A DNA stretch of 62,096 nucleotides, the filler included, from Vermamoeba vermiformis (lineage: Eukaryota): the NCBI GenBank assembly GCA_045837725.1. It is 3 parts of 3 records of this genome, joined end to end, with 100 filler letters (N's around TTAATTAATTAA, not from the genome) between each part and the next. Parts side by side here need not be neighbours in the genome. Positions count along the whole stretch, not along the records: positions 31,553 to 43,257 come from JBEWZL010000112.1; 2 more parts are not named here. One strand, 5' to 3'. The notes under the pieces were generated by a model. The model worked only from the letters and a program-made list of their open reading frames with translations. It did not search any database and was not told where the DNA came from. A program made the position numbers and the translations under genes. Of this stretch, positions 31,453-56,060 are shown piece after piece (position 1 is the stretch's first letter; each line of letters starts with the position of its first letter).

Positions 31453-31552
31453 NNNNNNNNNNNNNNNNNNNNNNNNNNNNNNNNNNNNNNNNNNNNTTAA
31501 TTAATTAANNNNNNNNNNNNNNNNNNNNNNNNNNNNNNNNNNNNNNNNNNNN
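31453..31552. other. Artificial contig linker (N44-TTAATTAATTAA-N44)
   Basis: Exactly 100 nt with a central six-frame stop cassette; identical to 43258-43357. Confidence 0.97.
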
Positions 31553-32731
31553 GCTATCTCCAATAACACCGCAGAGCCAAGAAAAAGTGCCATTTTGTTG
31601 TTTCAAATGCTCTTCAGTCACGAGCAGGGCACTGCCGTTGAATGCTCTAAGAACAAATTAAACCTTTAGTTAGTTCGGTTATTCGGTCAAAATTTGCATT
31701 GATTACTTGAACACGCGGAACTCGAAGTTAATGCTGATTGGTTCATCGACATTTGAGACCAGTGAATGGGCGTGAATTGTAATCACGTTGTCATTTTCAT
31801 TCGTTTTCCAAGTGCAATTGTATTGAAATCCACTGGCCACTGATTAAAATAAATTTATTATTATTTCCCAGCATTATTCATATATATATTTTTTTAAACT
31901 TACGTCCTATCTCACATCGTTGATGCGCGTAAAACGTAATAGAATAGACTGCACTCGGTGCAATTCTTCGGACGTCATATAATAATAAGATAGCGTAAGC
32001 CTCTGTAGAATCGATGTCCGTTGGGCTTGGATCTTTGAGCGTTGGGCCTTGCCTTTAAAAAATAAAATGTTAGGGGAAACAAGTTTCGGATCCAGCTCCA
32101 AAAAATTGCTTACCAATTAATTATAGGAATGCTCAGCGGTATGTAATGAACATCTTGTCGCAAAGTCAATTCGCGAAGATGATTTGTTCCTTCGAGATCT
32201 GGTCGGCGTTCAATTTCCGCGAGTTCGTTGGCGGAAAATTTTGCATTTTTTGACAACAGCCATTCGATAAGTGCCATTGAACTGATTCTACCATTATACT
32301 GGAGGCATGCGTTGCCTAAAGTACTTTCTAATCGAATTCCATTGATTGTGTTTTGGAGAAGTGGGTTCAATAGAGCGTTGACATCTGTCAAAGTGTCAAA
32401 GTGTCACTTTAAACAACGTTCGTGAAGCATAATGTGGAGCTAAAAATAGCTCAATTACATCATTCATGAATAAATTCGAATGACTCTATTACGGAACCTA
32501 AATATAGTAATAATTGTTACCTGCTCCGCGGCCAATCAGCTCGTCAAAGAATTCAGCAGGATTGACGTTGTACCTGCCCCTGAACTGCGCAATTGCAGCA
32601 ATATATCCCGTGGTAGGCACCAATGGCGTGTGTTCTACGAGGACTCTGAACTCGGGTAAATACCAATGATAGCAACTTAATTCCAGTGGTGCCAACTAAA
32701 CACAAATGAGCGTTTGGAGTAATTTATAATA

Positions 32732-32894
32732 ATAGTCAGTTACATATTTTGTCCCAACGTTGCGTATTTTGTCCCAACGATAATCTCGAAGCAATCTCCT
32801 GTTATCTTTTTCGCGCGCGATTTATTTGTCCGTTTTTAATTATATTCCATTAGGAGATAAAATTGTCGTTGGGACAAAATGTGTAACTGACTAT
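32732..32894. mobile_element. ~160-bp MITE in an intron
   Basis: 28-bp TIRs: ATAGTCAGTTACATATTTTGTCCCAACG (32732-32759) and CGTTGGGACAAAATGTGTAACTGACTAT (32867-32894), one mismatch. An internal extra copy of TATTTTGTCCCAACG is present. Confidence 0.8.
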
Positions 32895-33294
32895 AAAATG
32901 CGATCTTATACGTACTTTGTAATTCAATGGAATTTTTAGGTTTTTGTCAGGACAAGTGCCGGTCAAATTGAACGGATACGTCTCTTTGTGTTGAAGCAGA
33001 TCTGACAGAAATTGCGCTGCTGTGCAAGATAACTATCGAAAATATTTAAAAATGGATATTAAATAGTAGTATGAATTATGTTGAGGCTTACCAGGCGAAA
33101 TTTTGGAGCGAAAGCCGAGATCTTGCTCGACAAAATTATCCGAAGCAAGATATGACTATATTTGGATGCAAAACGCATTATCTTGTCGATTAAGCTGTCT
33201 TTTTCAATTGTTACAGGCTTTGAATCAACTACTAACTTGTTTTCAAGTGATCGAATGCTGATCCACAAAAAGCTTTGAAAATCATTGTTGATGA

Positions 33295-33331
33295 ATCGAA
33301 AAGTATTGTAAAAACGCATTTGAGTAAATTT
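33295..33331 (+). repeat. Left terminal inverted repeat
   Basis: ATCGAAAAGTATTGTAAAAACGCATTTGAGTAAATTT. Confidence 0.9.
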
Positions 33332-33353
33332 CGCACTTTTATAAGACAACTGG

Positions 33354-36300
33354 TTATTTTTTCCTTCTTTTCTGTTCATACTCTGCCCATTCCTGGTTTT
33401 TGCTTTGGTCAGCATCAATGAAGCAATTTCGTGGTTCCCACGATTGCTCTCCATTTTCCCACAGAACCAACCATTCTAATCTGTTTCCATTCTTCCTATG
33501 GTCAACTACTCTTTTGACAATCCATTCCTCTTGGTCTTGAAAAGAATTAGTATTGGTTCAAATAGTTGCCAACAGCATACCCTGAGTGAAATCTCGTTTG
33601 CGCTTTTTGGTTAACACTTCTACCTCTGGTTTTGAGCTAGTACTAATTATTGGGGCAGGCACTTCTGGTTTCACTTGCCCAATGGAGAACATTGCTTCAG
33701 AACTTTGAATCGGTTCGTATTGTGCCAGAGCTTCAAAATATTCAATTGCCTAAACTAGCCTTAAGAAACGGTTTCAAAGTTGAAAGCTTACTTGTTTTGA
33801 CAAGAATTTCTGAGCCTTGCTAACAATAGTTTGAATCAAATCGGCAGAAGGGCAAGTGGGTTGTATCACAGAAGGCTGACCAGATGGAGCTGCGCTGAAA
33901 AGTTCATCTTTAACTTCTGTCCATTCATTATCCAGTGACTGTTTCTTATACAAAAGAGAAGGAGTGTTGTCAAGTCCAGGTTTGATCCAAAATGCATACT
34001 TGTCCTTATGTCCACTTATTGACTGTGAAAAGCCAAGAAACCATTTCTTCCATGAATATACTGGCCATTGTAATTCACGAATGAGAATGTCTTTTGGATA
34101 GATGGCTCTGGCAAATTCCACTGCTTGGTCCATAGTTTCTATAACTTTCCATCGAAAGTAAGTGTGGAATAACTGAAACAATCTATCAATGTCTTCATGG
34201 GTATGTCCAGGTTGAAGGTAGTGAATGAATATTTCATCGAACCAGTTATGGTGCACTAAAGCTGCTGCAAACTGTAGCAGATACTGGTTCTTTCCTTCTG
34301 CGGCACTGTTATCTACTTGCAAGTAAAGAGTTCTTGGTCTCTTGCCTGGGTCTAGAGTGAGAAGTGACTCTTTTAGGTGATGGAAAAGCAGTGAAATGTA
34401 AAAGTCTGAATCTGCTACATAATCTGTTTCCTTGAAAAACACCAATTCTCTCTTGTTCAGACCATGGTTGATGAAGCCAACAAAACTGACAGGTAGGAAA
34501 GTTACATTTGTCCATTCTTTTGGCATTGGATGAAAATGAGGCAACCAAAATGAGCCACTTTTGTCCGTAATGACACTCATCTTGAGGTGAGGCTGCTTGA
34601 TAGCAATATCTGTTCGAACTCGATAACCTTGTCTATCTCTGGTAATATAGGCTATATGATCTTGCATTTGTTGCTTAAGAGCTGAAAGAGTTTTTTCACA
34701 CAGACCAGATTGAAGTCGCTTCTGTTTAATTAATAGGCATGTTGAGCACTTTCCCAGTCTGGTTTCTTTCGGTCTTTTAACATTCTAAATTGATAATTAG
34801 TATTAATAGGATTCAAGTTAATGTACCTTAAATTGCTTGTGCCTCACTTGCTTGAATGTCTCAAAACTGGGAATATCTTCAGTTGGCCGTTGCAGTTTGC
34901 ACTCTTCTGCAAAAAGTTTGTACCACTCTTTGTTTCTGAAGCTAGCAATTACAACCATATTCTATTTTATACACAAACTTACGTTAAATGAGATGGTAAG
35001 TGAATTTCATCCTTTGTAGGAACATAGTCTCCATAGGTTTCACAATAAGCTGAAATCCATGCTGCAACAGAGTCTCTCTTTGGAGTATCATATACTCGAA
35101 AGTAATTACCATGTAGAGTTGCAGTACTGCCATTAAGGTGCATTTGCTTGCAGTGAATCACTTTCTGAACGGCTACACCATAGATCCGACAGAAAGCCAA
35201 CTGACAAACTGACATTCCATTGATCAAAAACACAACTGAAGGATCTGATATATTCATGTTGGTTCCCATAAATTTCAATAGCCAAGTTGTTTTTTCACTT
35301 TCATTCATGTCAGCTACCATTTTGCGACATTTGAGAATCTGTTGATACGTAAACAATGAAGTGCACCTTGCATTACAACAGCTATCTTGTTGAACTGGTG
35401 TAAACAAGTTAGAGGTGTTTTTTTAGAAGCGAAAACATACCCTTTGTTATTGACTGTTCACTCACTAGTTTGTCTTTCTTTGCATGTTGGGCTTTCTGAG
35501 AGGGAACTTTCACGGCTGTGAGCTCTCTGAAAAATGAGCGAGAGATGAGTGGCTCCTCTTCAGCTTTTGATATAATGGATTGAAACAATGCAATTCCATT
35601 AACTTCTTTCTTAGTTGCCAGGTCCTATTTAGATTGTCAATACTGGAATACAGACAAATGTCAACAGACCTGCTGCTTAATGTACACCAAATGATCAATG
35701 TATTGTTTGTTTTTGCTAACATTGATATCTTCATTCACTCGATAGGCTATACCATTGTTTTGCATCCCATCATAAAAGTATGTGGTGTTGTTGTTAAGAA
35801 AGTAACACGTGGTGTGCACCCCATCACACATCAAAGCACTTAGTAGACTATATGAGCTATCTCCAAAGTGGAGAGTTGGTTCAATTTGTAAATTAATATT
35901 GGTGAACTGTCTCTTATATCTGCCCAACTCCACTGTGAGAACGGTTGGAAGGTGCATTGTTCCTAACACATTTGTAAGAATATATCTTTGACATCACTGG
36001 AGTTTCTTACGATGTTCCACTGCAAATTCTCCACAAAATTCACACGGCATAGGCATTTTTTGGCAATAGTCTATCAAATGGTGAATTGAAGCCTGAACGG
36101 AGAGTGTACTGTCAGAAAGTTTCTCAGCAACATAAACAGTTGGGTTGTTGAATTGTTTGATAGTTAAGGGGCAGCGGCAATTTGATCTGTGCTCTTCAGA
36201 AGTGCAAAAAAGGGTTGCTTCAGCTGTGGGCAAGGTTTTGATAGCAGCAGACAGTATTGCTCCAATAGAAACGTATGATTGGCACGGAGTCCATCCAGCT

Positions 36301-36564
36301 ACTGGTCCAAGAGCTTCAATTAAATCAACTTTCAATTGATGTAATGCTGAGCTTGATAATGGTGCAAATTGAATCCAGGTTGCAAGCAAGCGAAAGAAAT
36401 TACTAGTCAGCTGCAAATCAGGAATACACTGCAGTGTTAGGCGAAGCACCAGGGCAACAGTTTCAATAGTGCACAGATCTTTCATTCCTAGTTTCTAGGT
36501 TAGTACTACTAATGAGGAAGCTCACCAAGTCCTACCAGCTGAGCCCCACAGGAATCCTTGAAAT
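33354..36564 (-). CDS. USP(C19)-like peptidase + Sola1-like DDD transposase + chromodomain fusion (spliced; true start upstream of 36564 not found)
   Basis: Exons splice in frame across introns including 35963-36010, 35625-35669, 35395-35440, 33750-33791 and 33536-33580. Transposase motifs: VCQLAFCRIYGV, RPKETRLGKCSTC, VITDK, LYLQVDNSAAEGKNQY, QPGHTHEDIDRLF. The last exon (33354-33535) reads EEWIVKRVVDHRKNGNRLEWLVLWENGEQSWEP. Confidence 0.85.
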
Positions 36565-37655
36565 CTAAAAAAGACAAGTCAGTCACTAACTTGAGCAGTG
36601 ATTTTTCAACGAGCCAACAATATAATATATAAACTATAAATGATTAACAATATTCAATTATCAATGAAATAGTGTTCGGCAAAGTCGTAGACCAGAGGTG
36701 CAAAAGTTGGTGCAAAGTTTGTTTCGACATCATCGCTGAGTCATTTTTCAGACAGTCGAATATCATTGAATTAGGCATAATGTGGTGTATTAAGTGCATA
36801 TATTAAGTTAGTTTTGTTCGGCAAACAGTTGCGCAATGGGAGGACTCAACAACCGAACTGTAACTACCAGTCAAGATTTTTCATTTGATAAGTAATTGCA
36901 CGTTTATATTATGCACAATTAATACTTCATATAATTACTCTTTAGGAAGTTCGGCAAAGTAGTGTTGGAAAGTGGTTAAAGTTGGATCTGACTGCCGGCA
37001 GAACTTGTATTCCACAGTAAGCCATGCAAAGGCTACAAATGTCAAATAGGACAATATATTCATTTATCTATCTTTTCTGAGTTATCTGATTGCTGTATAT
37101 GGAGTTACAAGTGCATTTAACTTGGTTGCCGAACATTTTACTGAGGGCACGGGGTAGTTGGCATTAAAGATAAGCTATAAACAAAGCATAAACAAAACAA
37201 AGCCCATAAGTGCATTATATACTATATTAATATCATCATATAATATTAACAGCACTGAATAATTATTAGAAATGACTTGCGAGGCAGATATGAAATTGTG
37301 CCGATCACTTTTTTCATTAAATTGTCAATTCCTTCATTAGGATATTATTAGAGCTGTACTTTAAAGCCCTTTTAATTATTAATAACTCAAAAGAATAATT
37401 TCTAATGACTTCCGAAGAGGGAGGAAAATCAAATCTGACCCGGCTTACCTTGAATTAATCTCCATAGTGTTTTGAATAAAATGACCAATGATATTGATGT
37501 TATTATTAATAGTAGCTGTAGTAGTTGTGGGTTATCTTGTTGATAGTAATAAGAAAATGGCTTGGTAAATTGGCTCGTGCCCAAAGCCCTGGTAACTTCC
37601 TTTTTTGGGAGAACAAAATCAGAAGTTGCTCGGAAGTCATTAGATAACCACAACA

Positions 37656-39114
37656 ATGGCTAATAACCCAGAAAACTCTATTATTGAAGTACCAACAACC
37701 CCCTGAAGATGCAAGCCCTCCCGAGCAAAAGACTGAAACTGATTCCTCAGATCTGAATCCATCTCGGAAGTCATTAGGTATGAGATATTACCTTTAATAA
37801 TTAGGATATAATAGTAAAATAATATACATTAGCTTAATGTAAGCTTAATTTCATTTTTCAATAGCTGACAATTCTGCCGATGATTCAAATCTAGCTCGAT
37901 CCAAAGAAAAAAGCTCAGATCAACTCCTCAATACTATAGGTAATAAATAATTACACTACTATCTAAAATATAATATTATAATGCATTATTATAGAAGATA
38001 AAGCCATTAGCTTGGACGGCCAAGAAAAGCCTGTCGCCGATCCAGTTTCATCCGAACAAGACAAGAGTAAGTCCTACTGTTTGTACACTTCTACAATAGT
38101 TAACTCTCACTGCAGAGGACATCACTGAGTACTTCATTTACTTCGGAGAGCCTTGGGAAAAGAAGTGTTATTATAAAGTGACTCGAAGAGTGGACAACTT
38201 CTGCATCGAGGCAGGAGACTTGGTTGCCTTGAAATCAAATGCTGGGCTCCACACTGTCCTTCTCATTAAGAGAAACAAACAATACAACAAAGTCCTTCTT
38301 GCCGACCCAACTCTAGCAAAGGTCATCGAGGTCAAGTTCAGCGAGGTCCTGACAATCCACGGCAAAACAAGCTCTGGGCAACAGCCCCAACTGGACATAT
38401 TATTCAAGGAGTACATCAGTGCAAAGGTAACCTAGCTATCTATCAAGATAAAAGCTTATTCACCTTGTAGAAAAAAAAGTTATCTCCGGCAAAGTCCAAA
38501 TTAAAGCCCAAAGAAATGCATCCAAAGAGTGCAACTCGTACCCAACCACCTCGTTCTTCTCGTTCTCCTCCTGTGAAGAGTGTGCCAGTAATCAAAAAAG
38601 GTATAATCAAAAACATCAGTAGTATTGTCTAATAACCTTGAACTTAGAGCTAAAGCAAGCAATCCCTCAGGCACTGCGTCGAAGAAAGGAGCGCAAGCCA
38701 GCTCCAAAGATATTACCTGACTCCTCATCCTCTGACTCGGAGAGCTCTGTTAGTGTCAAGCCAAAGCCAAAGCAACAAAAGAAAGTGATGGAGGCTCCAA
38801 AGCTCAAGCCAGAGACGCTGCTCAAACCAACCCAACCATTGATTGATAGTGCTCTTCAAAATGCACCGTCTCTTTCTAATCAAGATTGTTCTCCAAATCC
38901 GATTGCTTTGGAACCTGCCACGCACAATGTCACTCAACTGTTCAACGTACCATTCCAGCTTCAAAAACTACTAGAGCTTCAACAAGTGCACCATCGGCAT
39001 GCAATGGCACAACAACAGGCTAATTTCATGTTGTTGTTACAACAGCAACAGCAAGCTGAGTCTCAAGAGGCATTCAGTGCAGTAGTGCAAACCTTCTCGA
39101 AATTAAATAATTAG
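37656..39114 (+). CDS. Transposon-borne multi-exon protein: acidic N-terminus, possible BAH/SH3-like barrel, basic linker, Q-rich tail (5' end uncertain, possible frameshift)
   Basis: Short GT-AG introns link exons up to YYKVTRRVDNFCIEAGDLVALKS... and ORF 38638-39114. The ATG at 37656 runs into a stop after a C5 run. Confidence 0.55.
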
Positions 39115-39226
39115 TTCCTGACGTTCTGCGAAATTCTTGCTAGTTAAATAAAATGAGAAACTTCTAGAAGTAATAGATTTCGTTGATTTTTTGTCAAAAT
39201 TTCGCTGAATTTCTAAAATAGTAGGG

Positions 39227-39233
39227 TATAAAA
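39227..39233 (+). promoter_or_regulatory. Candidate TATA box of the NEIL1-like gene
   Basis: GGGTATAAAAGG about 60 nt upstream of the ATG at 39289. Confidence 0.5.
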
Positions 39234-39288
39234 GGAGAATTCTTAGCAAACTGTCATTTTTAAATTGATTCTAAAGACAACACAACAA

Positions 39289-40332
39289 ATGCCAGAATAC
39301 CTTGAAAACAAGCTAGATGCAAGTGCCATCAATGCCAAAGCAAAGGGCCACAAGTTCAACTCAATCTCCACTGGTCCATACAAAGTACCTACTTCTTCAG
39401 AGCCCCTACCTACCATGAATGGACAGTATACTCTCTCTGCCTCTGCCATTGGAAAGTGGCTTATTATCAAGCTGCGGCAAAAACGTCAACTTAAGCACAC
39501 TCTCTACATCTCTCTCAGCATGAAAGGACAAGTTGTGTTTCTTACCCCTGAACAGTATGAAGCTGAAAGCAAATTTGTGGCTATTGCTTTCCATCGTGCA
39601 GATGGCTTGGTCATTGGACTCTTCCACAAGCCCAGCAACCACATTGTTATATATGTGGATTACAAGCCTGACACTCTTTCACATGACTTCTTCCTTGAAC
39701 CATCAGCATTCAAAAAGCACCTGCAACAGAAGTTGAAAGCTACCCGCAAGAACCTGGCTACTACTCCTCTCTGTGTATTGATGCTGGATCAAGACTTCTT
39801 TCCTGGAGTTGGAAACTATCTGCGTGCTGAAACTCTCCATAAGGCAAACATTCCACCTTTCACTCCTGCTAGCCTCCTGAACGAACCTCAGTTTTTGCAA
39901 ACTCTGTTGGATGCTCTACATGCAATTGTGATGGAATTCATTGCCAAGTTACCAGATCACTACAACATGCAAGATGCTCAAATGAAAACTTGGTTTGAGA
40001 ATGATTTCCTGAAGGTGTATGGCAAACAAGACTCCCAACGTGCCTTTGACTCCAGTGGAAAGAAGATTTGGTGGAAAGGACCAGGGGGACAGCTTCCCTA
40101 TGTACCAACAGAAGATGTATCCAAAGAATCTGTTGGTCCTTATAGTGGATGGGCAATGGAGCTGGAACAAACTGAAATTACTCACCAGGACAAGCAAGCT
40201 CTTCACTATGCAGTGCGCAAAGGAAAGCGTGGACGACCTAGAGTGATACGCAACTCTATTGGAAGACCAAGCCTGGGCCGCCCTCAATACAATAATAGAA
40301 GAGCAAAGCAAAAGTTTATGTACCGTAAATAA
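39289..40332 (+). CDS. Intronless NEIL1-like (Fpg/Nei) DNA glycosylase/AP lyase with C-terminal AT-hook
   Basis: N-terminal MPE, YTLSASAIGKWL, SMKG, H2TH motif LDQDFFPGVGNYLRAETLHKANIPPF, zincless finger LKVYG...DSSGKKIWWKGPGG and KRGRPR. Confidence 0.9.
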   Translation: MPEYLENKLDASAINAKAKGHKFNSISTGPYKVPTSSEPLPTMNGQYTLSASAIGKWLIIKLRQKRQLKHTLYISLSMKGQVVFLTPEQYEAESKFVAIAFHRADGLVIGLFHKPSNHIVIYVDYKPDTLSHDFFLEPSAFKKHLQQKLKATRKNLATTPLCVLMLDQDFFPGVGNYLRAETLHKANIPPFTPASLLNEPQFLQTLLDALHAIVMEFIAKLPDHYNMQDAQMKTWFENDFLKVYGKQDSQRAFDSSGKKIWWKGPGGQLPYVPTEDVSKESVGPYSGWAMELEQTEITHQDKQALHYAVRKGKRGRPRVIRNSIGRPSLGRPQYNNRRAKQKFMYRK

Positions 40333-40335
40333 ACT

Positions 40336-40372
40336 AAATGTACCCAAATGCACTTTTACAATACCTTTCGAT
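40336..40372 (-). repeat. Right terminal inverted repeat
   Basis: Reverse complement ATCGAAAGGTATTGTAAAAGTGCATTTGGGTACATTT matches the left TIR at 32/37. Confidence 0.9.
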
Positions 40373-41495
40373 ATGAACTTCCACTCCGCCGTACTATCTT
40401 TCTCCAGATTTTCATATGCCTAAGTAAATTTAGCACATATCAAGCGCTTTTAATAAAGTTTCAGTTTCGATCTGCGGATTGACTTACTTTAACAAAATAA
40501 TCGAATACAGAAACTGCGTTACATTCAACCATGTCTTCGAAATTAATCTCGGGATCGGCAGATTTTTTTACTCGTACAAAAGGGTTTGGTGTCTTTGCAA
40601 AAATATCAGGCCCAAAGCACGCATGTAAATACGTAACATCGTCGAACGCGAATGCACGCTATCAATGCTATTAATACCAGATATAATAATAATGCTCATA
40701 ATATTACTTTTTTGAGGCTTTTCTTGAACCAGTATTCGAGATCTTGTTTGAGTGTGTGATCTTGTTTTCGGAGTCTTCAATAATTTATTAGCTAATTAAA
40801 TAATTATTAATGGCGAAATAAATGCAAGATTCTTACGGTTGTATGGTAAATTGATACATTTGTAACTCCATTTTCAAATCAATCATAAAATAAAGCTTCT
40901 TGCATGATCGAGCAAGCGTTGATTTGCTCAATATACCACTATTAATTATAATAATTTTAATAAGCTCATTGGGAAGGCCAATAAGAGTTGACGACGGCTG
41001 TTCCGATGGCGGATTTGATGCATCACGTTTGAGTTGCTTCTTTTTAGCAACTTCTTTTGCATCAAACTGCTTGAACTTCGAGGAAAGGCTCGGTGTCGTG
41101 TTTTTGTTGCGCTTCATTTGATTTAAATGATAACTGAACTATCAGCCACAATTGTTGCGTTCCAGAAAAAACAAGAAGCCACGAAGGGGACGCGTAACGG
41201 GGTGCGTATAAATTAATATGATTGGTGCGTGTCCAAGAACGTGATGGTGTAACTTTTATTTATTAGGCAATTAACCGGCTAAATAACGGTAACAAAAGGA
41301 ATTATAAATACAACAAAAAATTGGATAAATATGAATAAATAATAGAATAAATATGTCAACAGGTTTGTCACAGATCAGTTAGATTTACTCGACTACTGAT
41401 CAACAGGCCTTTGATATTTTATTATAAAGTGGATGACTTTCACGTTGTCCAGACCAAATCGCTTGGTTTTATTACGATTCTTGCTTTAGTGAAAA

Positions 41496-43120
41496 CTACT
41501 GCAAATATGACATATCAAAGTTGATCTCGTAAATGTCATATCTATTTATCGCGAGGGCTTTGGTGTCATTAATGATGAAAATATCTACTAGCTCTTTGTT
41601 GATGTAACCAATGATCGCTCGTTTGCTGATCGAAAAGAAAATTCGACGAGGATTACCATTGCGGTAAGTTCGACACGTTAAAATGTCTCTATTTAACCAA
41701 CAACATTGTGCGCACATTTTTTCTGGCAAGCTTATCGAGAGGTAGGGGTCATGCAAGTGCTCAATATTGTCTGGTACAGTGTTTGCATCGTTTATGCGAG
41801 TAGTTGACAATTCATGAACAGTGAATACTCCAGATTCTGAGAAAAAAGTCGGTAAAATTCGGTTAAGTTGCAGTCTTACTTGGTAATGTGCAGTAATATG
41901 GTGAACCCGGGAATACAACAAGATCGTTCCAAGCTTTGAAATAGTCGTTCACATCTTTAGTCGGCTGTTGCTGGTAGGATTGGCGGTGAATAATTTTCCG
42001 CGAATTGACATCTAATATTTCTATTTCTAGTGCCACGCCTGGGTACCGAAATATCTTCAAGTAGGACCCATTTTCATTCTCAAATAGCTGCATCCCGCAA
42101 TTGAAATGTTCTTTTTGTTTTTCATTAAGCTGCCCGTTGTAAAGGTCAATAATTTTCAGATTAATGCAATCGATCTCGAATATTGAGTAAGTTGCATTCA
42201 CTAGGTCGTGACTAATGGCGTATGTGACAGGTCTTAACGTTGATGAGATGTAGTCACAAGGAACCGACAACTCGAATGTAGCTACGTCGTTCCCTGTTGT
42301 TATCGATCGGAAATTTAACTTCGCAGAATTATTCTCTTCGTAAGCAATTCCAATCCAAATATCACCTAAAAAAAAGGTAAGTATTACAAGCAAGAGCAGA
42401 ATTACGTTGGCGTTTACCATATATAAGGGATTGATCTCCTGGTTGCGTGCTTAGGCACGTGACATCTCGTTCATGAACCAAAACGTCACCTTCAACGCGG
42501 AAAAATTTCATGGTACTTTCCTCCGTAAGCAATCCGATCGTCTGATCTATTAGTATGCGGCTTATATTAGAAAGTCATGAGAATAATGCAAAGTACTTGC
42601 CAGTTATGTTAAAAAACGGCTCGTACAAGGTAGGCATCGGTAGTGTTGCTGTTATAATCGCTGTTGTTGCGTTGTACACAAGTAAATCTTTGTCTAAATA
42701 TAAAATTAAATCTTTTCTCCATGGAACTTGATAGCTGCTCGGCAGTGCGTTGTGTGGATTCGGTTTTCCATTTGTCAAAGTGAAGTAGGAGACTGAATGT
42801 CCTTCGTCCACGAGCGAATCTATCACAATGAGGCGTCGGAATTGTTGGTTCATATCTTCTTTTAATACGAGGGTGTATGACAGTGGGAATGCCGACTGGA
42901 TGCGTTTAATCCAGGCGAAGCTAAACCGATCAGACAACCACGAATTGAACTTTTTGCATACTGTACGCAATATAAATATTCTCTTGATAGACAGAAAAAT
43001 AGTTACGTTGAGAAACGCGTCTTTGCTGGAGAATAAAGCATTTTCAGATCTGCTCGAAAAATAAGATCTTAACTTAGTGGTAGTAATTAAAATCCTCAAT
43101 TTTACTTACATGTCTTCCAT
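41496..43120 (-). CDS. F-box-like protein with beta-rich C-terminal region
   Basis: FSSKDAFLNVTIFLSIKRIFILRTVCKKFNSW is F-box-like. Three ORFs are joined by introns, with an ATG micro-exon at 43120. Confidence 0.65.
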
Positions 43121-43257
43121 AAATCGTGTTGAATCGCTAATTTGTCAGCACCTGAATGGTGCGCTCTGTCGAGGTGTCAGAAAAAAATGAGAAACAAATT
43201 AATAACTGTAGATTTTAGATAATAGTACATAAGATATACAACAACGATATGTATGAG

Positions 43258-43357
43258 NNNNNNNNNNNNNNNNNNNNNNNNNNNNNNNNNNNNNNNNNNN
43301 NTTAATTAATTAANNNNNNNNNNNNNNNNNNNNNNNNNNNNNNNNNNNNNNNNNNNN
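43258..43357. other. Artificial contig linker (N44-TTAATTAATTAA-N44)
   Basis: Same 100-nt cassette as 31453-31552. Confidence 0.97.
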
Positions 43358-43699
43358 TGAAAGTTAATACAAGTGCAGTTGAAACAAAATTCTTCAAGAT
43401 TGAAGTTGAATTCATATGAGCACTGCATGCCACTCTTCATATTGAGGTGAAGCTCAGGAGGCACATCAACTGTTATGTCATCAATATTTTTTAACCTGTA
43501 ATGAAGTAAACTTAGGATCTGCAGTCACTATCAGTTAGGTGAACAGGCATTGATCTCTATCATCTTAAAAGTTACCACACGTGATTCAGTCCCATCATAC
43601 AGTCCCAAGAGTGCATATTCCCTGACTTTAGGCCCAAGAATGGGGTCAAGAATGGTGACTACTGTGTTTACTTTCATGTCAAACTTACAGATGGCAGTT

Positions 43700-43900
43700 C
43701 AGTATGTACTCAACTTTCCTTAACTTAGTATCTTCAATCCTTTCTTAGTGTTTGATTGAATTGCTCAATTTGACCATTTGTCTGAAGGTGCCTAGGAGCT
43801 GACTTGATCTTCTTGTACCCAATTGCTCTCTTAGCTTCTGACATTGCATGTGAATTGATAAGTTGTTGATGCTGCTTTGCTCTAGTGATAAGCAATTCTC
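43700..43900 (-). pseudogene. Decayed retroviral-type (rve) integrase fragment
   Basis: Reverse translation AIGYKKIKSAPRHLQTNGQIEQFNQTLRK resembles the HPQxNGxxERxNRTL motif. Stops are nearby and the region is almost free of CpG. Confidence 0.65.
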
Positions 43901-44078
43901 ATTTGCTAATTAAAGCAAGCAATAGTATCATTTAATGCATCCTTCTTTGTAATCATATCTAATTGGATTGACTTTATATAGAATAGGGTTGGGGCTAGGC
44001 CCAACCTCAATAAACCACATGTTTTTAACAAATTAAATATTTATTTTAGGGTCCAACTGGACTACAAGCTTGCGTCTG

Positions 44079-44292
44079 GGTGCGAGCCACGCACTAAGAC
44101 AGCACACAAGACTTGGACGGTGCGAGCCACGCACCAGGAAAGTGTCCAAGACTTGGACGGTGCGAGCCATGCACCAAGACAGCACACAAGACTTGGACGG
44201 TGCGAGCACGCACCAGGAAAGTGTCCAAGACTTGGACGGTGCAAGCCATGCACCAAGACAGCACACAAGACTTGGACGGTGCGAGCACGCAC
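44079..44292. repeat. Tandem 39-40 bp hairpin repeat, 5 full units plus a partial, alternating A/B variants
   Basis: GGTGCGAGCCACGCAC-x-CAAGACTTGGAC units at 44079, 44119, 44159, 44199, 44238 and 44278. Confidence 0.93.
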
Positions 44293-44583
44293 TATTCTAC
44301 TTAAAAGGCTAGGGCTGGGATTATACGATGGGCATGAAACGCCCGGGATTGATGCGAAAACCATGCCCAAAAAATCGTGGCAAGAAAATGAAGCAAAATA
44401 GCCAAAAACGAACATGAGCATTATATATAGCCTTAGGAGTAGGCTGGTTTAGGTTTATAGGCTTTTGGCATTAAATGATACATTTTATATATATTTAGGG
44501 TTGCCCACCCTATGGGTTATGGGGTTGTTGGTGGCCCTTCAGGGGGTTTCTTGCGATTTGTGGGGTGTGACCTCCTTTCACCT

Positions 44584-45163
44584 GGAGGATGTTGTCCAAC
44601 AGGATGCGACCTCATTTTGATAGGAGGTTGTTGTCTGATGGGATGCGACCTGGTTTAGACAGAAGGTTGTTGTCCAATGGGATGCAACCTCGTTTTGATA
44701 GGAGGTTGTTGTCCGACGGGATACAACCTCGTTCGACAAGGCAGGTTGTTGTCCAGGAGGATGCAACCTCTTTCGGCAAGGCAGGTTGTTGTCCAGGAGG
44801 ATGCGACCTCATTTGACAAGGGAGGTTGTTGTCCAGTGGGATCCAACCTCATTCGAGAAGGGAGGTTGTTGTCCAGTGGGATGCGACCTCATTCGAGAAG
44901 GCAAATTGTTGCCCAACGGGATGCAACCTGGTTCAGACGGAAGGTTGTTGTCCAGTGGGATGCGACCTCGTTTTGATAGGAGGTTGTTGTCCGATGGGAT
45001 ACAACCTCGTTTCGATAGGAGGTTGTTGTCCGACAGGATGCAACCTGGTTTAGACAGAAGGTTGTTGTCCAACAGGATATGACCTTGTTTTGACAGGAGG
45101 TTGTTGTCGGAAGGGATGCTACCTAATTTGCATGTGAGGTTGTTGTCCAGGAGGATGTAATCT
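44584..45163. repeat. Tandem array of 15 imperfect palindromic 39-40 bp units
   Basis: Consensus GAGGTTGTTGTCC-N4-GGATGCRACCTC plus a ~10-bp variable linker. Confidence 0.93.
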
Positions 45164-45394
45164 ATATATTACACAGTTTGTATTATGAAAAATTTAGTTT
45201 ATTGGAGTTGTAGTGTTGAGCAATTTTTTTGAATTTTTTAGACAGTTTTCTTCTGAAAAATCGATTCATCTTCGAAATTGATTCTGTTTCACCATCATCC
45301 TCACTCTCCGTCTCATCTCCATCTGAATATTTGAGTTCGCTCAAGTGTCTGCACCGTTGAAATTATTTTACTGATTATTATTGCAACGGGAAAC

Positions 45395-46476
45395 TTACAA
45401 TTTGAGAACATGAGTAAGTGAGACAAAAATGTCAAACTGAAGGGGTTGCTGTTTCAACCAAGTCCAAAATATTGAATTGGTTTGAACAGTCTTTGAAGGC
45501 TGGCCAGAGTTTAACCAATTTGAAGGCAAGCTGGAGGGGAGAACACAGGTTGTGAAGCACTCAAACACTGTCAAGGGCGTACAAACCAACAAACAATGAA
45601 CTTTCTTGTTTTCGAATGTTGTCCGGTTGAAAACTTGAACATATCGCATGGCTGCTTGCTGCCATCCAGTGCAATAAAATTGAAGGTAGTCAAAGTCGTG
45701 TTCAACAAAATTGCAGAGCTGTCGCAAGTATTCAGTGCAAACACTAATTAACAGACTTTGATTTGCCTCAGTGCTTAAGAATTGGAAAGCATTTTGCCAT
45801 GGAGGTATACCTGGTTAATGTATCAGTAGTAGTAGAAGTAGTTTGCATTGAAGACAGCTTTTTTGTACCAAAGTAATGAGCCAAGCGCTGAAGAATTTCG
45901 TTTGTAATTAGCTCACCAAAGCCATTAAACAGTTCTGAGCACAGCAATTCAAACAAAGTTAAGTGTCTTCCAATATTGCCCACACGTGTAGCAAGTAGGT
46001 GGGTGAACAAACCATTTTCCATCCTAATATCTGGGCCCAGTTTATTGTTCCATTGTAATGCTGGCAGTACAGTAATTGCAGGCCCACTATGAGGAGTGCG
46101 TGGCAAGAAAATGAGGACTTGATCAACTCCGTCAAAGCTCATAATTGTAAAAGCCCATGAGTTAAAATTTTTTAATGCATTAACTTGGCAATAAATGACA
46201 ATATCTTCACTCGCTAGCTGAACTATAATTGCCGAGCCATCTGCCAAAATCAGTGCAAGCTGCTGTCCACGTGAGTAGATCTAGTTTACAATTATTAAAA
46301 TCAAGTGCGTGACTTCTATCAATTAAACCTACCAATTCTACCCGTAAGTAATACGTCTCTCTTTGTAGTAAAGTTGTAACTTTGCCGTTACTGCTGTAAA
46401 GTCGAACCAAGATCCTTCGAAGAATGCGCGCTGACAGCCAACGTTGCAAGCACTTATAGTCCACGTATTCGGCCAC
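45395..46476 (-). CDS. Degenerate NEIL1/Fpg-like protein, probably catalytically inactive (intron-containing; ends uncertain)
   Basis: AEYVDY aligns with MPEYLE, and DGSAIIVQL with IGKWLIIKL. Also KLGPDI, LFELLCSELFNGFGELITNEILQRL (H2TH) and YVQVFNR. Confidence 0.6.
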
Positions 46477-47315
46477 TAAATATATTTAATTAGTACGTTG
46501 AGCAGAGGCAGAGATCAGCGCATTTTGGATGCGCTACGATTTATAAACTTAATTAACCTATTGCATTAATAATAACGCTATTGCTCACTTACATGTTAGT
46601 AAAAATCCTCGATGCAGTGGCGTATTGTACTCCCAGCAAGGAATATTACCAAGATCACGTTCGCCGTGATCGGTGGTTGCTCGCCCAACGAGGGCAAGGA
46701 GTGTCGCCGTCGAAGCAACAATTTATTAAATATTTACTTACTCATAAAAGCGCGTTGTGAACGAATTGTGCACTCCTGTTTCAGATTGCTAAAATAGTAA
46801 GTCCGGTAACATTCCGTTTATTCGCAATTGTTGTAATAATTGTTATATTTTTAATTAGTAACCACCAGTGCCATATGTTTTGTGTAAGTTCTACCACGGG
46901 CTCGATGGTCCGTTGATAATGCAACTTCGTTTGGTTGCACGAATCTCGCTGAGTCCGCTGACTCGGCGAGCTTCATTTTCTAACAAGGAGTGCGTTAGCT
47001 CCATTTTCTTTATGGCGAATCGCCGTACTAATTTCTTTTTGAAGATGGGCGAATCCTGTCTTCAATTGAATTTAGTCACGAATTAATGGTAAATAATTGG
47101 CAGTTTATGCTGCTACGTTACCTTGAATTTATTGCTGCCGTGTTATTATTTATTTGGGCTTACAGGCCTAAAGAAATTTTGATCTCGAGATCTTGAAATT
47201 TTATTTATTTATTTTACCAAACAGAATTCCTTAGGCATACAATATATTATTTACAAATACACAAATAATAATAATATTGTTTATAATTAAATTCCAGCTG
47301 ACTTGGTTTTTCAGA

Positions 47316-48692
47316 TGACTTCGGTACTACAAGCGTTATCGTTGAAGTCAAAAGTCGATATCTACTTGGACTTTCTTGTGAAGGCTCGAAACAGAATATG
47401 GTTCGAAACAGACTTTCCGGATACCTTAGTGCGACAGATTCAACAGCATCCTGAATGGGTCACACGCGAGGATTTCGTCTTTTACTTCGTGTTTTTCGCA
47501 TATCATAAAATGCTACCGCCGTTGGATTTGGCGAAGCTGTATTATCCTACGTGGTACTTCACGTACCGCAATCAGATCGCTGCAACGCTCTCTTTGGACG
47601 TCAATAGCCAGCAATGGGCTGACTTCAACACCATCTTCAACACCTTTCCGTACCGTTTACAATCCGCGATGCAAATGTGCGCCGTGCGAGCTGCCAGTCA
47701 TCCCGCAATCGGAGGAGCTCAAGTTCAAACGCAATTTTATTTACTTTGGTGCGCTCTTCGCTTCAAAATGTCTTATTGGCAATCCGATAACACTCTGCGC
47801 GTGCTATTGGACGAGTTAGAAAAAGAAGACGCGAAATGCAACTACGATTCGCCGTTGTTCACGCTGGATCACAAAAACTGCTTAGCGCCACCACTTCAAG
47901 GTATGCCCACAATACTAATGAAAATACTAACCAACTATCAAGGTGTCCAACTCCCCAATTATTCTGTGTCTAAATCGCAGCAAAAGAAGAACAAGAAGAA
48001 AACGCCGAGTAACATCTATTACGAGCGTGTTGGCTTCGTACAAGAATGCAACAGATTAGGTTATCGTTGGTTTCATCCGCCAGAATTTAACAGAGCAAGG
48101 GCGATATACGAGATTGCTGAAAAAAAACGAAAGTTGGATGCCGATTCGACAAAAACTTCTGGCACTCCAAAACGTAGAAAGGTTAGTACCACTACTTTAT
48201 GATTTAAACGTCGGTTTTAATAAATTTAGTTGGAAGGCACAGAGTGCTATTCTAGCAATCAAGAAAACTACGCGCCGTTCGAGCAAATCGAGCACGATGC
48301 AGAAGTTGAAGCATTTTCTCACAGCCCTGTCTACCAGCCAATGTACGAGATGCCTGTAAGTATTATTAGTAACTTATTATCGAAGCAATTTACTGATACG
48401 GGTCCAGGATTCACCAAACGTGCCCCTCTCTCCCCCATCCGAACCAGAGACAGCGATTGCTTCCCCACCCCACCGTAACACCGAAAATGAGTCGTTAATC
48501 GACGCAGCATTTAAAGCTGTTACGGTTATTGAAGTCAGTGCGGCAGACACTCGCAAGATGCTTGAAGAGAACGCGTCTTACTTGGCAGCAGCAACCAGCG
48601 ACTTATTATGGTGCGTTGGACCGGGAGAAGGAGTAAGATTGCAAGAGATACTAATGCAAACATTGGCGTGGGTAGGTAACGAATTGTATTGA
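47316..48692 (+). CDS. Unknown-domain protein (paralog 1); may be spliced to the downstream LRR-like exons
   Basis: Long open exon 47316-48180 with downstream splice sites. Motifs are shared with the gene at 59364-60093. Confidence 0.65.
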
Positions 48693-48983
48693 CAACAGTG
48701 CTGATCCTTTCTCAGTACAGAGATCGAGCGAAGTTTGAGTTTTGCTGGACCCCCGAACTAGAGACTCGCGTTGCTAACCTTACAGAGGACCAGGCACACG
48801 CAACTTTGCTGAAAGAATATATAGTAAGTTCTCAATTCTCAAGGATTTGTTTTGTATCGTGATTAACTCTCTATCCTTCCAGCGGTCAACGGTGGGGCTT
48901 GAACTACTAACGACACTTCGCCTCTATGTAAGTTAGTAATTGCTACCGTGGGCGACTAATAAGTGTAGCCAAAATCAGGAAGG

Positions 48984-51604: not shown

Positions 51605-52070
51605 CATTCGCATGTAGACATCAGCATGAGGACATTCGCATGAAGACATCAGCATGAGAACATTCGCATGCTTCATCCGAATGACTGACACTAATGGGGC
51701 ATGCGCATGTAAATTAAACATGCGAATGTATTTACTATCATGCGAATGCAGTAACGGACTGTCTGCCATGCGAATGTACTCGCTGCCATGCGAGTGTGAT
51801 CACTTGACTGTCATGCAAATGTACTCGCTGTCATGCGAATGCAATCACTTGACTGTCATGCGAATGTACTTGACTGTAATGCTGTCATGCGAATGTACTT
51901 GGCTGTCATGCGAATGTACTTGACTGTCATGCGAATGCAGTAACGGACTGTCTGCCATGCGAATGTACTCGCTGCCATGCGAATGCGATCACTTGACTGT
52001 CATGCGAATGTACCCGCTGCCATGGTGATCACTTGACTGTCATGCGAATGTAATCACTGTCATGCGGAGT
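51605..52070. repeat. Bidirectional array of the decamer CATGCGAATG
   Basis: Three reverse copies (51605, 51632, 51661), a central CATGCGCATG palindrome near 51700, then about 15 forward copies or variants from 51719 to 52061 at mostly 20-29 bp spacing. Confidence 0.92.
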
Positions 52071-55483: not shown

Positions 55484-55615
55484 GATTGCGAAAGATAAAG
55501 ATTGAAAAAACGCCTACGAAAAAAAAAATTGTTAACCACGTGACTTTTGACGAACTAAAATTTATAAGTCCAAATATAGTACGTTCTGAAAATAAAATTA
55601 AGTAATCTCACAAGC

Positions 55616-55990: not shown

Positions 55991-56060
55991 AAATAACTCC
56001 GCCGGATAACCTCCGGTACAAAAATGTTAGCGATTAATAAATTATGCATTTAATTACAGA

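What the first reader, a model, noticed from the sequence alone, without database searches (positions are those of the whole stretch)
39289..40332. Transposon-borne NEIL1-like glycosylase with altered recognition residues and an AT-hook
Seen: catalytic Pro2, Glu3 and the GK lysine are kept. From recalled human NEIL1, PEGPE becomes PEYLE, the void-filling DIRRFG loop becomes HKPSNH, and the finger Arg (GRTIW) becomes Lys. The tail has KRGRPR and two further GRP motifs. The gene is intronless among intron-rich neighbours, suggesting retrocopy or horizontal capture. Inference: shifted substrate specificity (modified cytosines, mismatches or transposition intermediates).
Basis: partly seen in the sequence, partly recalled or inferred. 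Interest (0 to 1): 0.8.

Follow-up and report, generated by a model that had tools for sequence, protein, structure and literature searches.

The report
Transposon carrying its own NEIL1-like glycosylase
A 7.1-kb cut-and-paste DNA transposon, present in about a dozen near-identical copies and stripped of CpG sites unlike its host, carries an intact, conserved DNA-repair glycosylase gene that may help it resist DNA-methylation silencing.

Summary
ORF 39289-40332 (+) encodes a 347-aa NEIL1-type Fpg/Nei glycosylase. Pro2, Glu3, Glu6, Lys56 and Met78 are kept. The tail has one canonical AT-hook and two more GRP motifs.

It lies inside a 7,078-bp element (33295-40372) with these features:
- It is bounded by 37-nt inverted repeats.
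- It encodes a 938-aa, 8-exon DUF7869 (RNase-H-like DDE fold) transposase with a possible C-terminal chromodomain, and a second unknown gene.
- Its depth is about 12x that of the flanks in one DNA run.
- The empty site is seen in two runs, and another insertion site in one.

Four homologous loci (63-69% aa identity) keep the ORF, the upstream gene and the terminal repeat; dN/dS is about 0.07-0.16.

Of the "altered residues":
- PEYLE is ordinary for the family.
- The finger Arg-to-Lys change is typical of this clade but conservative.
- The loss of the Arg/Phe orphan-base loop (HKPSNH) is real and invariant in the family.

New here: CpG observed/expected is 0.41 in the element (0.25 in the ORF) against 1.18 in host DNA.

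Best reading: a catalytically competent accessory glycosylase/AP lyase. It most likely acts against CpG-methylation silencing or decay of the element. That function is inferred, not shown. I found no report of a transposon-encoded Fpg/Nei enzyme.

The parts
33291..33294 (.). Left flank ATGA. It is repeated directly at 40373-40376 and may be a 4-bp target-site duplication.
   Evidence: Read. The empty-site contig keeps ATGATGA, so the duplication length is unresolved: a duplication of at most 1 bp, or an excision footprint.
33295..33331 (+). Left terminal inverted repeat (ATCGAAAAGTATTGTAAAA...).
   Evidence: pair I4: 37 nt, 86% complementary to 40336-40372. In one search the 19-nt terminal pattern occurs only at the two ends (0 of 100 shuffles gave 2 matches). 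In one search, X4 record 9 matches only from 33295 onward, with a different flank before it.
33354..36485 (-). Transposase gene. It has 8 exons (36485-36011, 35962-35670, 35624-35441, 35394-34983, 34935-34827, 34784-33792, 33749-33581, 33535-33354) and 7 GT..AG introns of 42-48 nt, giving an open 938-aa frame.
   Evidence: Gene model. It was built by eye and checked only for an open frame; no RNA supports it.
33792..34784 (-). Exon 6, the DUF7869 catalytic core. Candidate acidic triad: D74, D158 and E197/D198/D200 (exon numbering).
   Evidence: Pfam DUF7869 E 4.7e-39. Acidic residues conserved in 4-5 of 5 homologs. The AF2 strand/helix order is RNase-H-like (pLDDT 68). Structure hits: Metnase Z 8.5, Mos1 Z 8.3, IstA and retroviral integrases.
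33354..33535 (-). Last transposase exon, a chromodomain-like C-terminus. Its stop codon lies 23 nt inside the left repeat.
   Evidence: Pfam Chromo E 9.8e-4, 19.4 bits, below the 25.1 cut-off.
36486..37994 (.). Region between the divergent genes, with no coding call. Part of it (37027-37808) has about twice the depth of the rest of the element.
   Evidence: table 2: about 15,440 there against 4,700-9,400 elsewhere. Unexplained.
37995..39114 (+). Second accessory gene (ORF-B). Exons 37995-38066, 38100-38426, 38471-38600 and 38648-39114 give 331 aa of open frame; the start is not found. It has a conserved ~95-aa domain, a Lys/Ser/Pro-rich linker and a Gln-rich helical end.
   Evidence: It is conserved upstream of the glycosylase in L001 and L002. 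No family was found.
39227..39234 (+). TATAAAAG, 55 nt before the ATG. A possible promoter of the glycosylase gene's own.
   Evidence: Read. This is an inference.
39289..40332 (+). NEIL1-like glycosylase ORF of 347 aa with no intron.
   Evidence: Homologs at 67-70% identity. dN/dS 0.07-0.16.
39625..39642 (+). HKPSNH (residues 113-118). It replaces the Arg/Phe void-filling loop between two strands.
   Evidence: AF2 strands 108-112 and 120-124. Invariant in the family. MAFFT places this loop differently, but in either placement the R-x-F pair is absent.
40060..40062 (+). Lys258 at the place of the zincless-finger Arg (NEIL1 Arg277).
   Evidence: HMMER alignment. Column counts.
40225..40284 (+). 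AT-hook KRGRPR (residues 313-318) and two further GRP motifs (325-327, 330-332) in a disordered basic tail.
   Evidence: Tail pLDDT is below 50. The same kind of tail is seen in distant relatives P0006, P0009, P0056 and P0097.
40328..40333 (+). AATAAA overlapping the stop codon, a possible poly(A) signal.
   Evidence: Read. This is an inference.
40336..40372 (-). Right terminal inverted repeat.
   Evidence: It is conserved in L001 and L004, and similarity stops exactly at its outer end. In one search, X4 record 15 leaves the window sequence at 40373.

Best explanation
**Shown.**
- The ORF is an accessory gene of an autonomous terminal-inverted-repeat DNA transposon, 33295-40372 (7,078 bp).
- The element is multi-copy and polymorphic in its insertion sites.
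- The protein is a NEIL1-type member of the Fpg/Nei fold. It has every residue needed for Schiff-base chemistry: the N-terminal Pro2, plus Glu3 and Lys56. It also has the Met wedge, the H2TH motif and a zincless finger.
- It has evolved under purifying selection across a diverged family of such elements.

**Inferred.**
- It is an active bifunctional glycosylase/AP lyase, held on AT-rich DNA by its AT-hook tail.
- It lacks the Arg/Phe loop that in NEIL1 holds the orphan base. In that respect it resembles NEIL2 and NEIL3, so it probably works on abasic sites or on bases in unwound, bubble or single-stranded DNA rather than by strict duplex read-out.
- The element, unlike the host DNA around it, is strongly and specifically CpG-depleted. 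It therefore appears to live under cytosine methylation.

**Most likely job.** Base excision in the element's own interest: removing oxidised or deaminated 5-methylcytosine, or cutting the abasic sites left by other glycosylases. This would drive demethylation and reactivation of silenced copies. It would be the glycosylase counterpart of the TET/JBP dioxygenases carried by fungal DNA transposons.

**Confidence.** About 0.9 for identity and transposon carriage. About 0.4 for the anti-methylation function; the confidence figure below refers to that function.
For: **Transposon.**
- 37-nt inverted repeats lie at both ends.
- In run X1, single contigs inside the element have depth 4,288-4,927 with 0-2 mismatches. 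The four flank contigs have 350-452 (table 8).
- A contig that skips 33294-40372 is seen in X1 (depth 282.7) and in X4 (5.2) (table 5).
- X4 contigs enter and leave the element exactly at 33295 and 40373 with other flanks (tables 7 and 8).
- The terminal repeat is conserved in L001 and L004, and similarity ends at its tip.
- The transposase frame is intact at 938 aa. It has a DUF7869 core with RNase-H-like order and DDE transposase/integrase structure hits.
- Linkage is kept in a 67-72% identical family: L001 and L002 hold ORF-B plus the glycosylase. P0003 (glycosylase) and P0181 (transposase) both come from a Logan contig of 7,167 nt. That this is one and the same contig is my inference.

**Enzyme.** establish the fold. 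Residue counts are. dN/dS is 0.07-0.16 in 4 pairs.

**Loop.**

**Methylation context.**
- CpG o/e is 0.41 in the element (110 observed, 270.5 expected) and 0.25 in the ORF. Host DNA is 1.18, and 83 host windows of the same size range from 0.90 to 1.37.
- GpC is normal (1.19) and TpG+CpA is raised (1.27).
- The related loci L001-L004 score 0.22-0.32.
- A second, unrelated repeat-rich stretch (43001-46000) is also CpG-poor. This argues for a host process aimed at repeats.

**Precedents.**
- TET/JBP genes in fungal DNA transposons (PMC12730594: abstract and passages).
- NEIL1 excising 5caC, and NEIL-dependent reactivation of methylated reporters (PMC5566547 and PMC4117777: titles and abstract starts only).
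Against: - No enzyme assay exists. No methylation data exist for this organism, and no DNMT or TET could be looked for because no genome is held.
- CpG depletion shows that the glycosylase has not prevented CpG decay.
- The depletion could instead be a signature carried in from another genome by horizontal transfer. L001's short flank is also lowish (0.58 over 1,161 nt).
- In metagenome X4 the element's contig depth (3.8-8.3) is hardly above the flank's (4.1). High copy number is therefore shown in one run only.
- The X1 empty-site contig has only 25 nt on its shorter side, and reads were laid at 90% likeness. The tool warns about both conditions. The X4 contig has 53 nt.
- The target-site duplication is unresolved.
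- The loop placement rests on a model with pLDDT 72-76 there.
- NEIL1's direct action on 5caC is itself debated, according to the abstract start of PMC5566547.
Confidence: 0.4

Rival explanations
1. Transposition helper. The glycosylase/AP lyase processes DNA made during cut-and-paste transposition, such as damaged or abasic ends, gaps at donor and target sites, or single-stranded and bubble intermediates. It thereby raises transposition or donor-site repair and has no link to methylation.
For: The Arg/Phe orphan-base loop is lost, as in NEIL2 and NEIL3, which favour AP sites and single-stranded DNA. The gene is tightly linked to the transposase across the family. The AT-hook could bind the AT-rich terminal repeats.
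Against: Known DDE cut-and-paste chemistry needs no base excision (general knowledge). This reading does not explain the CpG-specific depletion. No other superfamily is reported to carry such a gene in the searches I ran.
Confidence: 0.22
2. Self-maintenance. The enzyme is an ordinary oxidative- or deamination-damage glycosylase that the element carries to keep its own copies from mutational decay. An example would be removing T or 5hmU opposite G, or oxidised pyrimidines, locally through AT-hook tethering.
For: It has the full NEIL1 catalytic set and the conserved Tyr225-containing YNMQD stretch. The copies are near-identical.
Against: CpG has decayed to 0.25-0.41 o/e anyway. A diffusible enzyme would repair host DNA as well, so the selective benefit to the element is weak (argument).
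Confidence: 0.12
3. Passenger with no role for the element. A host or foreign gene was captured by chance, or a host-beneficial gene merely sits between repeats.
For: The ORF is intronless among intron-bearing co-resident genes. It appears to have its own TATA box and poly(A) signal.
Against: It is kept intact with dN/dS 0.07-0.16 in elements whose proteins are about 30% diverged. It is present at the same about 12-fold depth as the transposase. It sits inside the repeats in three independent loci. The insertion is polymorphic, so it is not a fixed host locus.
Confidence: 0.08
4. Non-catalytic DNA binder. The fold is used only to recognise lesions or to bend DNA, together with the AT-hooks, as an architectural or targeting factor.
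For: The void-filling loop is altered and the finger has Lys instead of Arg. The basic AT-hook tail is long.
Against: Pro2 directly after Met, Glu3, Glu6 and Lys56 are invariant in 6 of 6 members. A binder would have no need to keep them.
Confidence: 0.06

Closest known systems
Human and other metazoan NEIL1 (Fpg/Nei family, zincless-finger subgroup)
   Same: Best sequence and structure match. It shares Pro2/Glu3/Lys catalysis, the Met wedge, H2TH, a zincless two-strand finger without cysteines, and a disordered basic C-terminal tail.
   Different: Only 22-25% identity. In the tree it is not nested in the clade that holds Hydra and Branchiostoma NEIL1 (55 of 179 proteins at hand were used). 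The Arg118/Phe120 loop is replaced by HKPSNH, and the finger Arg is Lys. It has an extra VGPxxGW segment and AT-hooks. It is carried by a transposon in many copies.
NEIL2 and NEIL3
   Same: Both lack the second void-filling loop residues and prefer AP sites, bubbles or single strands (passages of PMC10711445). The protein here also lacks the Arg/Phe pair.
   Different: Their loop is truncated and they have zinc fingers. Here the loop is kept in length but changed in sequence, and the finger is zincless. Sequence similarity is much weaker (E 5.5e-4 to 0.1).
Fungal DNA transposons that encode TET/JBP dioxygenases (Kyakuja, Dileera, Zisupton, hAT, Harbinger, EnSpm, Helitron and others)
   Same: These are autonomous DNA transposons carrying an enzyme of the cytosine-demethylation pathway beside the transposase, often with a third gene. 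They are proposed to escape methylation-based silencing (PMC12730594, abstract and passages).
   Different: The enzyme class differs: an oxidase there, a base-excision enzyme here. The transposase here is DUF7869, and Pfam gave no KDZ hit. The host is not known to be a fungus. The supplementary tables of that paper could not be seen.
Giant-virus Nei/Fpg (mimivirus L720 and relatives)
   Same: Fpg/Nei genes carried by a mobile or viral genome of microbial eukaryotes.
   Different: Weaker matches (4mb7 E 5.1e-5; BFVD TM 0.49-0.54 on the query). There is no AT-hook tail. No relative was found in viral contigs.
VANC anti-silencing proteins of VANDAL (Mutator) elements; plant DME/ROS1 5mC glycosylases
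   Same: VANC shows the concept of a transposon-encoded factor that removes methylation from its own copies (listing of PMC5735166). DME/ROS1 show demethylation by base excision (recalled).
   Different: VANC is not an enzyme of this kind. DME/ROS1 are HhH-GPD glycosylases and host genes.

Membership tests
Fpg/Nei DNA glycosylase family, NEIL1-like subgroup | N-terminal Pro directly after the initiator Met (the nucleophile), followed by the catalytic Glu | tested here: met
   MPE in 6 of 6 family members. P2 is present in 52 of 55 and E3 in 53 of 55 other relatives in the same columns.
Fpg/Nei DNA glycosylase family, NEIL1-like subgroup | Conserved Lys of the GK motif (NEIL1 Lys54) | tested here: met
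   K56 in 6 of 6 family members; K in 53 of 55 others. It aligns to the NEIL1 GK.
Fpg/Nei DNA glycosylase family, NEIL1-like subgroup | Two-domain fold with an H2TH motif | tested here: met
   Foldseek gives NEIL1 E 7e-17 and TM 0.74-0.78 on the target. G173, G175, N176, R179 and E181 are conserved. Pfam H2TH scores 32.3 bits, just below its 34.7 cut-off, while the N-domain's 26.3 bits clears its 25.5 cut-off.
Fpg/Nei DNA glycosylase family, NEIL1-like subgroup | Zincless finger (a two-strand hairpin without the four Cys) carrying an Arg | tested here: inconclusive
   Hairpin at 250-253 and 259-262. There is no Cys in 245-270. The Arg position holds Lys in 5 of 6 family members, whereas 54 of 55 others have Arg.
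Fpg/Nei DNA glycosylase family, NEIL1-like subgroup | Void-filling triad Met81 / Arg118 / Phe120 | tested here: not met
   The Met is kept (M78). The Arg/Phe loop is HKPSNH in 6 of 6 family members, whereas 41 of 55 others keep a D-x-R-x-F-G-like motif. The residue roles come from PMC10711445. NEIL2 and NEIL3 also fail this feature and are still family members.
Fpg/Nei DNA glycosylase family, NEIL1-like subgroup | Glycosylase and beta,delta-lyase activity | not testable with these tools
   This needs a protein assay.
Class II (terminal-inverted-repeat, DDE) DNA transposon | Terminal inverted repeats at the exact ends of the mobile unit | tested here: met
   The junctions fall at 33295 and at 40372/3.
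Class II (terminal-inverted-repeat, DDE) DNA transposon | Several copies, and sites both with and without the element | tested here: met
   about 12-fold contig depth in X1, an empty-site contig in X1 and X4, and other flanks in X4. A 100% identical transposase fragment lies on another contig (P0180). Copy number is not raised in X4.
Class II (terminal-inverted-repeat, DDE) DNA transposon | RNase-H-like DDE/DDD transposase | tested here: inconclusive
   The strand/helix order and conserved D74, D158 and E197/D198/D200 fit. The best structure hits are DDE transposases and integrases, but only at Z 7-8.5 and Foldseek E 7e-4, on a model of pLDDT 68. There was no sequence hit to solved structures.
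Class II (terminal-inverted-repeat, DDE) DNA transposon | Target-site duplication of fixed length | tested here: inconclusive
   ATGA flanks both ends. The empty site reads ..GATG|ATGAAC.., a net insertion of 7,079 bp. Only one complete copy could be seen, so the superfamily cannot be assigned.
AT-hook | R-G-R-P core flanked by basic residues | tested here: met
   GKRGRPRV at 312-319. It is conserved as K(R/K)GRP in 4 of 4 homologs that reach this region. Pfam listed no AT_hook match at E up to 1, as is common for so short a motif.
Chromodomain (transposase C-terminus) | Match to the Pfam Chromo profile | tested here: inconclusive
   E 9.8e-4 and 19.4 bits, against a cut-off of 25.1.

The most novel reading that the evidence does not exclude
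This is the first transposon-encoded base-excision 'demethylase'. The proposal is that a family of DUF7869 DNA transposons in a microbial or small aquatic eukaryote is methylated at CpG by its host. The elements fight back with their own NEIL1-derived glycosylase/AP lyase. The enzyme is tethered to the element's AT-rich DNA by AT-hooks and has lost the orphan-base clamp, so it can act in unwound or transcribed DNA. The wider clade with the same VGPxxGW and AT-hook tail (P0006, P0009, P0056, P0097) would then be a previously unseen, transposon-associated branch of Fpg/Nei.
Probability: 0.3. Interest if true: 0.85.

Novelty: new variant of a known kind. Interest (0 to 1): 0.7.

Why it matters
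- Transposons are known to carry TET/JBP oxidases in fungi and non-enzymatic anti-silencers in plants. I did not find a transposon that carries the excision step of demethylation, a glycosylase, in four full-text searches.
- If the function holds, arms races over DNA methylation recruit base-excision repair on the parasite's side.
- It would also offer a compact, naturally DNA-tethered NEIL variant with a changed opposite-strand read-out for enzymology.
- It gives the Pfam family DUF7869 a concrete mobile element with defined ends.
- The sharp CpG contrast (0.41 against 1.18) is by itself a usable marker of repeat-targeted methylation in an organism for which no methylome was seen here.

Tried and rejected
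**Expression.** No RNA holder was listed. Two RNA raw-read runs of the same species label gave 4 and 8 partly fitting reads at 90-95% likeness over all 11.7 kb. The flanks were as blank as the element, so there is no positive control and no conclusion.

**Whole genome.** None is held. Copy census, host NEIL1, DNMT and TET could therefore not be searched.

**Earlier findings.** Nothing by place, sequence or words.

**Viral origin.** No relative was found in viral contigs. The one exact hit of the 19-nt terminal pattern (L005) shows no similarity beyond the pattern and is about what chance predicts.

**ORF-B function.** Pfam, a profile search of solved structures (best E 0.19) and the protein atlas (best score 0.86) gave nothing credible.

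**DUF7869.**
- The term occurs in no paper of the library.
- There was no sequence hit to solved structures.
- The superfamily is left open. A link to Sola (4-bp duplication, from recall) was considered but not tested.

**Host taxon.** An EF-1-alpha-like exon gave about 55% identity to many eukaryotes and nothing close with a name. The taxon is left undetermined.

**Target-site duplication.** Only one full copy was available, so it stays unresolved.

**A second H2TH-like gene.** ORF 45768-46280 (-) looked like one by eye. Pfam and BLASTP show no support.

**Other copies in the window.** None.

**Not run.** A complex prediction was not run, because no binding claim is made.

Searches were slips and were corrected.
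Full report
**1. What is at the coordinates.**

The + strand frame 39289-40332 is open for 347 codons plus a stop and begins MPEYLENK.
- Pfam finds the Fpg/Nei N-terminal domain (E 1.2e-5, above its cut-off) and H2TH (E 9.9e-8, 32.3 bits, just under the 34.7 cut-off).
- Among solved structures, human NEIL1 is the best sequence match (9.5e-11). It is ahead of plant FPG (2e-5), mimivirus L720 (5.1e-5), NEIL2 (5.5e-4), E. coli Nei (0.04) and NEIL3 (0.09).
- An AlphaFold2 model built on 66 aligned relatives has mean pLDDT 81.5. Residues 1-276 are well ordered. The tail is disordered apart from one helix.
- All listed top Foldseek matches in the PDB are human NEIL1 (E 7e-17 down to 3e-12, TM 0.74-0.78 on the target, about 276 columns).
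- Giant-virus Fpg models match more weakly (E 8e-11 to 1e-9, TM 0.49-0.52 on the query).

**2. The window is a composite.**

Two N44-TTAATTAATTAA-N44 linkers show that it is three contigs laid end to end: 1-31452, 31553-43257 and 43358-62096. Only the middle 11.7 kb is true context for the finding.

**3. The gene sits in a transposon.**
- A 37-nt inverted repeat (86% complementary) lies at 33295-33331 and 40336-40372. The right arm starts 3 nt after the stop codon. Its first 19 nt occur nowhere else in the window (0 of 100 shuffles gave two matches).
- I laid contigs of a DNA run of the same organism label (X1) and of a water metagenome (X4) on the middle contig.
- In X1, four single contigs inside the unit have depths 4,849, 4,686, 4,927 and 4,288 with 0-2 mismatches. 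Four flank contigs have 452, 381, 350 and 352. That is about twelve-fold.
- The glycosylase ORF itself (record 5, 39667-40025) shares the high depth.
- One contig in each run joins 33293 to 40373 and skips 7,079 bases. This is the empty site (X1 depth 282.7 with 25 nt on the short side; X4 depth 5.2 with 53 nt).
- In X4, one contig matches the window only from 33295 onward. Another leaves it at 40373 into different sequence. That means a copy elsewhere.
- Caveats:
  - Reads were laid at 90% likeness, and the X1 joint has a short side.
  - In X4 the element's depth (3.8-8.3) is barely above the flank's (4.1). Amplification is therefore shown for X1 only.
- A 100% identical transposase fragment on another 4,887-nt contig (P0180) is a further copy.

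**4. Other genes of the element.**
- On the minus strand, seven GT..AG introns of 42-48 nt join eight exons into an unbroken 938-aa frame from ATG 36485 to the stop at 33354. The model was made by eye and has no RNA support.
- Exon 6 is Pfam DUF7869 (E 4.7e-39).
- In five homologs, D74, D158 and the HTHEDID stretch are conserved.
- An AF2 model of that exon (pLDDT 68) places these residues at the end of strand 1, at the end of strand 4, and on the helix after strand 5. That is the RNase-H-like order.
- The best structural matches are DDE transposases and integrases: Metnase Z 8.5, SIV integrase 8.4, Mos1 8.3 and IstA 7.9; Foldseek gives IstA 7e-4. These scores are at the level where the tool warns of common arrangements, so I call the fold probable, not proven.
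- The last exon looks like a chromodomain (E 9.8e-4, below cut-off).
- On the plus strand, upstream of the glycosylase, at least four exons give 331 aa of a second gene, ORF-B. It has no recognisable family.
- A TATAAAAG lies 55 nt before the glycosylase ATG. An AATAAA overlaps its stop.

**5. The arrangement is conserved.**
- Four homologs at 67-70% identity are all of similar length and begin MPEY.
- Four metagenome loci hold the gene. L001 and L002 also hold ORF-B upstream.
- In L001 and L004 the right terminal repeat follows the stop codon. Similarity to the window ends exactly at its tip, with different flanks.
- A 72%-identical DUF7869 protein (P0181) and the glycosylase homolog P0003 both stem from a Logan contig of 7,167 nt. 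That is close to the element's length, and they are probably one contig (inference).
- Pairwise dN/dS of the glycosylase ORF is 0.10, 0.15, 0.16 and 0.07 in four pairs. dS is saturated. One further pair had pS too high to correct, and one pair was identical.

**6. Where it stands in the family.**
- A profile of the five sequences was run against 1.84 billion representatives. It found 998 proteins at E up to 1e-3 but only two at up to 1e-30: the family's own representative, and P0006 (2.9e-32).
- P0006, P0009, P0056/P0159 and P0097 share the post-finger VGPxxGW segment and AT-hook tails.
- I built a quick maximum-likelihood tree of 55 rows: 49 hits covering both domains, plus 6 partial ones, out of the 179 proteins at hand. 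These relatives and the family form one side of a branch (SH-aLRT 91). That side is apart from the clade holding Hydra and Branchiostoma NEIL1 (96) and from a large clade that includes a bacterial Nei-like protein (98). The branches are long and the tool warns of possible long-branch attraction (names).

**7. The 'altered residues'.**

Counts on the 66-row alignment:
- Position 5 is Ala in 25 and Pro in 18 of 55 other relatives, so PEYLE is unremarkable. Glu6 is kept.
- The finger position is Arg in 54 of 55 others. It is Lys in 5 of 6 family members and in 4 of 5 AT-hook relatives. This is a clade mark, though conservative.
- A D-x-R-x-F-G-like motif is present in 41 of 55 others and in 0 of 6 family members. 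The family has the invariant HKPSNH instead.
- The model puts HKPSNH in the loop between strands 108-112 and 120-124. MAFFT places it otherwise. Either way the Arg/Phe pair is missing.
- According to passages of PMC10711445, this loop gives NEIL1 its wedge Phe120 and the Arg118 that holds the orphan base. It is truncated in NEIL2 and NEIL3, which favour AP sites or single strands.

**8. New observation: CpG.**
- CpG observed/expected is 0.41 in the element (110 found, 270.5 expected) and 0.25 in the ORF. All other DNA of the window scores 1.18.
- None of 83 host windows of 7,078 nt falls below 0.90.
- GpC is normal, and TpG+CpA is raised.
- In 1-kb steps the drop begins and ends at the element's borders.
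- The related loci L001-L004 score 0.22-0.32. L001's 1.2-kb flank scores 0.58.
- A second CpG-poor stretch (43001-46000, 0.34-0.66) holds unrelated 39/40-nt tandem arrays.
- The simplest reading is that the host methylates repeats at CpG and that these decay by deamination. An imported composition is the alternative.

**9. Reading.**
- Identity and transposon carriage are well supported.
- The function is inferred. I favour a role against methylation-based silencing, by analogy with TET/JBP-bearing fungal transposons (PMC12730594) and with reports that link NEIL enzymes to removal of oxidised 5mC (PMC5566547 and PMC4117777, listings only).
- The rivals are: help with transposition intermediates, plain self-repair, a functionless passenger, and a non-catalytic binder.
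- Four literature searches listed no transposon-encoded Fpg/Nei enzyme. Supplementary tables were not available.

Noticed in passing
window 31453-31552 and 43258-43357: N44-TTAATTAATTAA-N44 linkers. The window is three separate contigs joined artificially, so neighbours across these points are not real neighbours.
   Followed up: yes
window 32729-32897: A 164-bp piece bounded by 28-nt inverted repeats (32732-32759 / 32867-32894) is skipped in contigs of X1 and X4 (joints 32728>32893 and 32733>32898). It is probably a small non-autonomous transposon that is polymorphic in insertion.
   Followed up: partly
window 43358-46000: A second CpG-poor stretch (o/e 0.34-0.66 in 1-kb steps) at the start of the third contig. 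It holds tandem arrays of 40-nt units (44079-44292) and 39-nt units (44584-45157). It is unrelated in sequence to the element.
   Followed up: partly
window 37027-37808: This non-coding part of the element has about twice the summed contig depth of the rest in X1 (about 15,440). Several X4 contigs break at 37528-37566. It may be a sub-repeat shared with other or shorter elements.
   Followed up: no
window 9650-11417: A multi-exon EF-1-alpha-like GTPase gene. It is only about 55% identical to named EF-1-alpha proteins of many eukaryotes, and 70% identical to one unnamed metatranscriptome protein. It is a divergent paralog or comes from a poorly sampled lineage.
   Followed up: partly
window 40833-43099 (- strand): The element's right flank holds three ORFs with weak F-box / F-box-associated hits (E 0.009-0.03). 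These are probably members of an expanded host family.
   Followed up: no
window 45768-46280 (- strand): This ORF has a stretch that looks like an H2TH motif by eye (..LFNGFGELITNEILQRL..). Pfam and BLASTP against the glycosylase give no support.
   Followed up: yes
proteins P0006, P0009, P0056/P0159, P0097: These distant Fpg/Nei relatives share the VGPxxGW segment and AT-hook tail. In the predictions most lack the N-terminal domain, so they may be last exons of intron-bearing genes or fragments. Their genomic context could not be fetched.
   Followed up: partly
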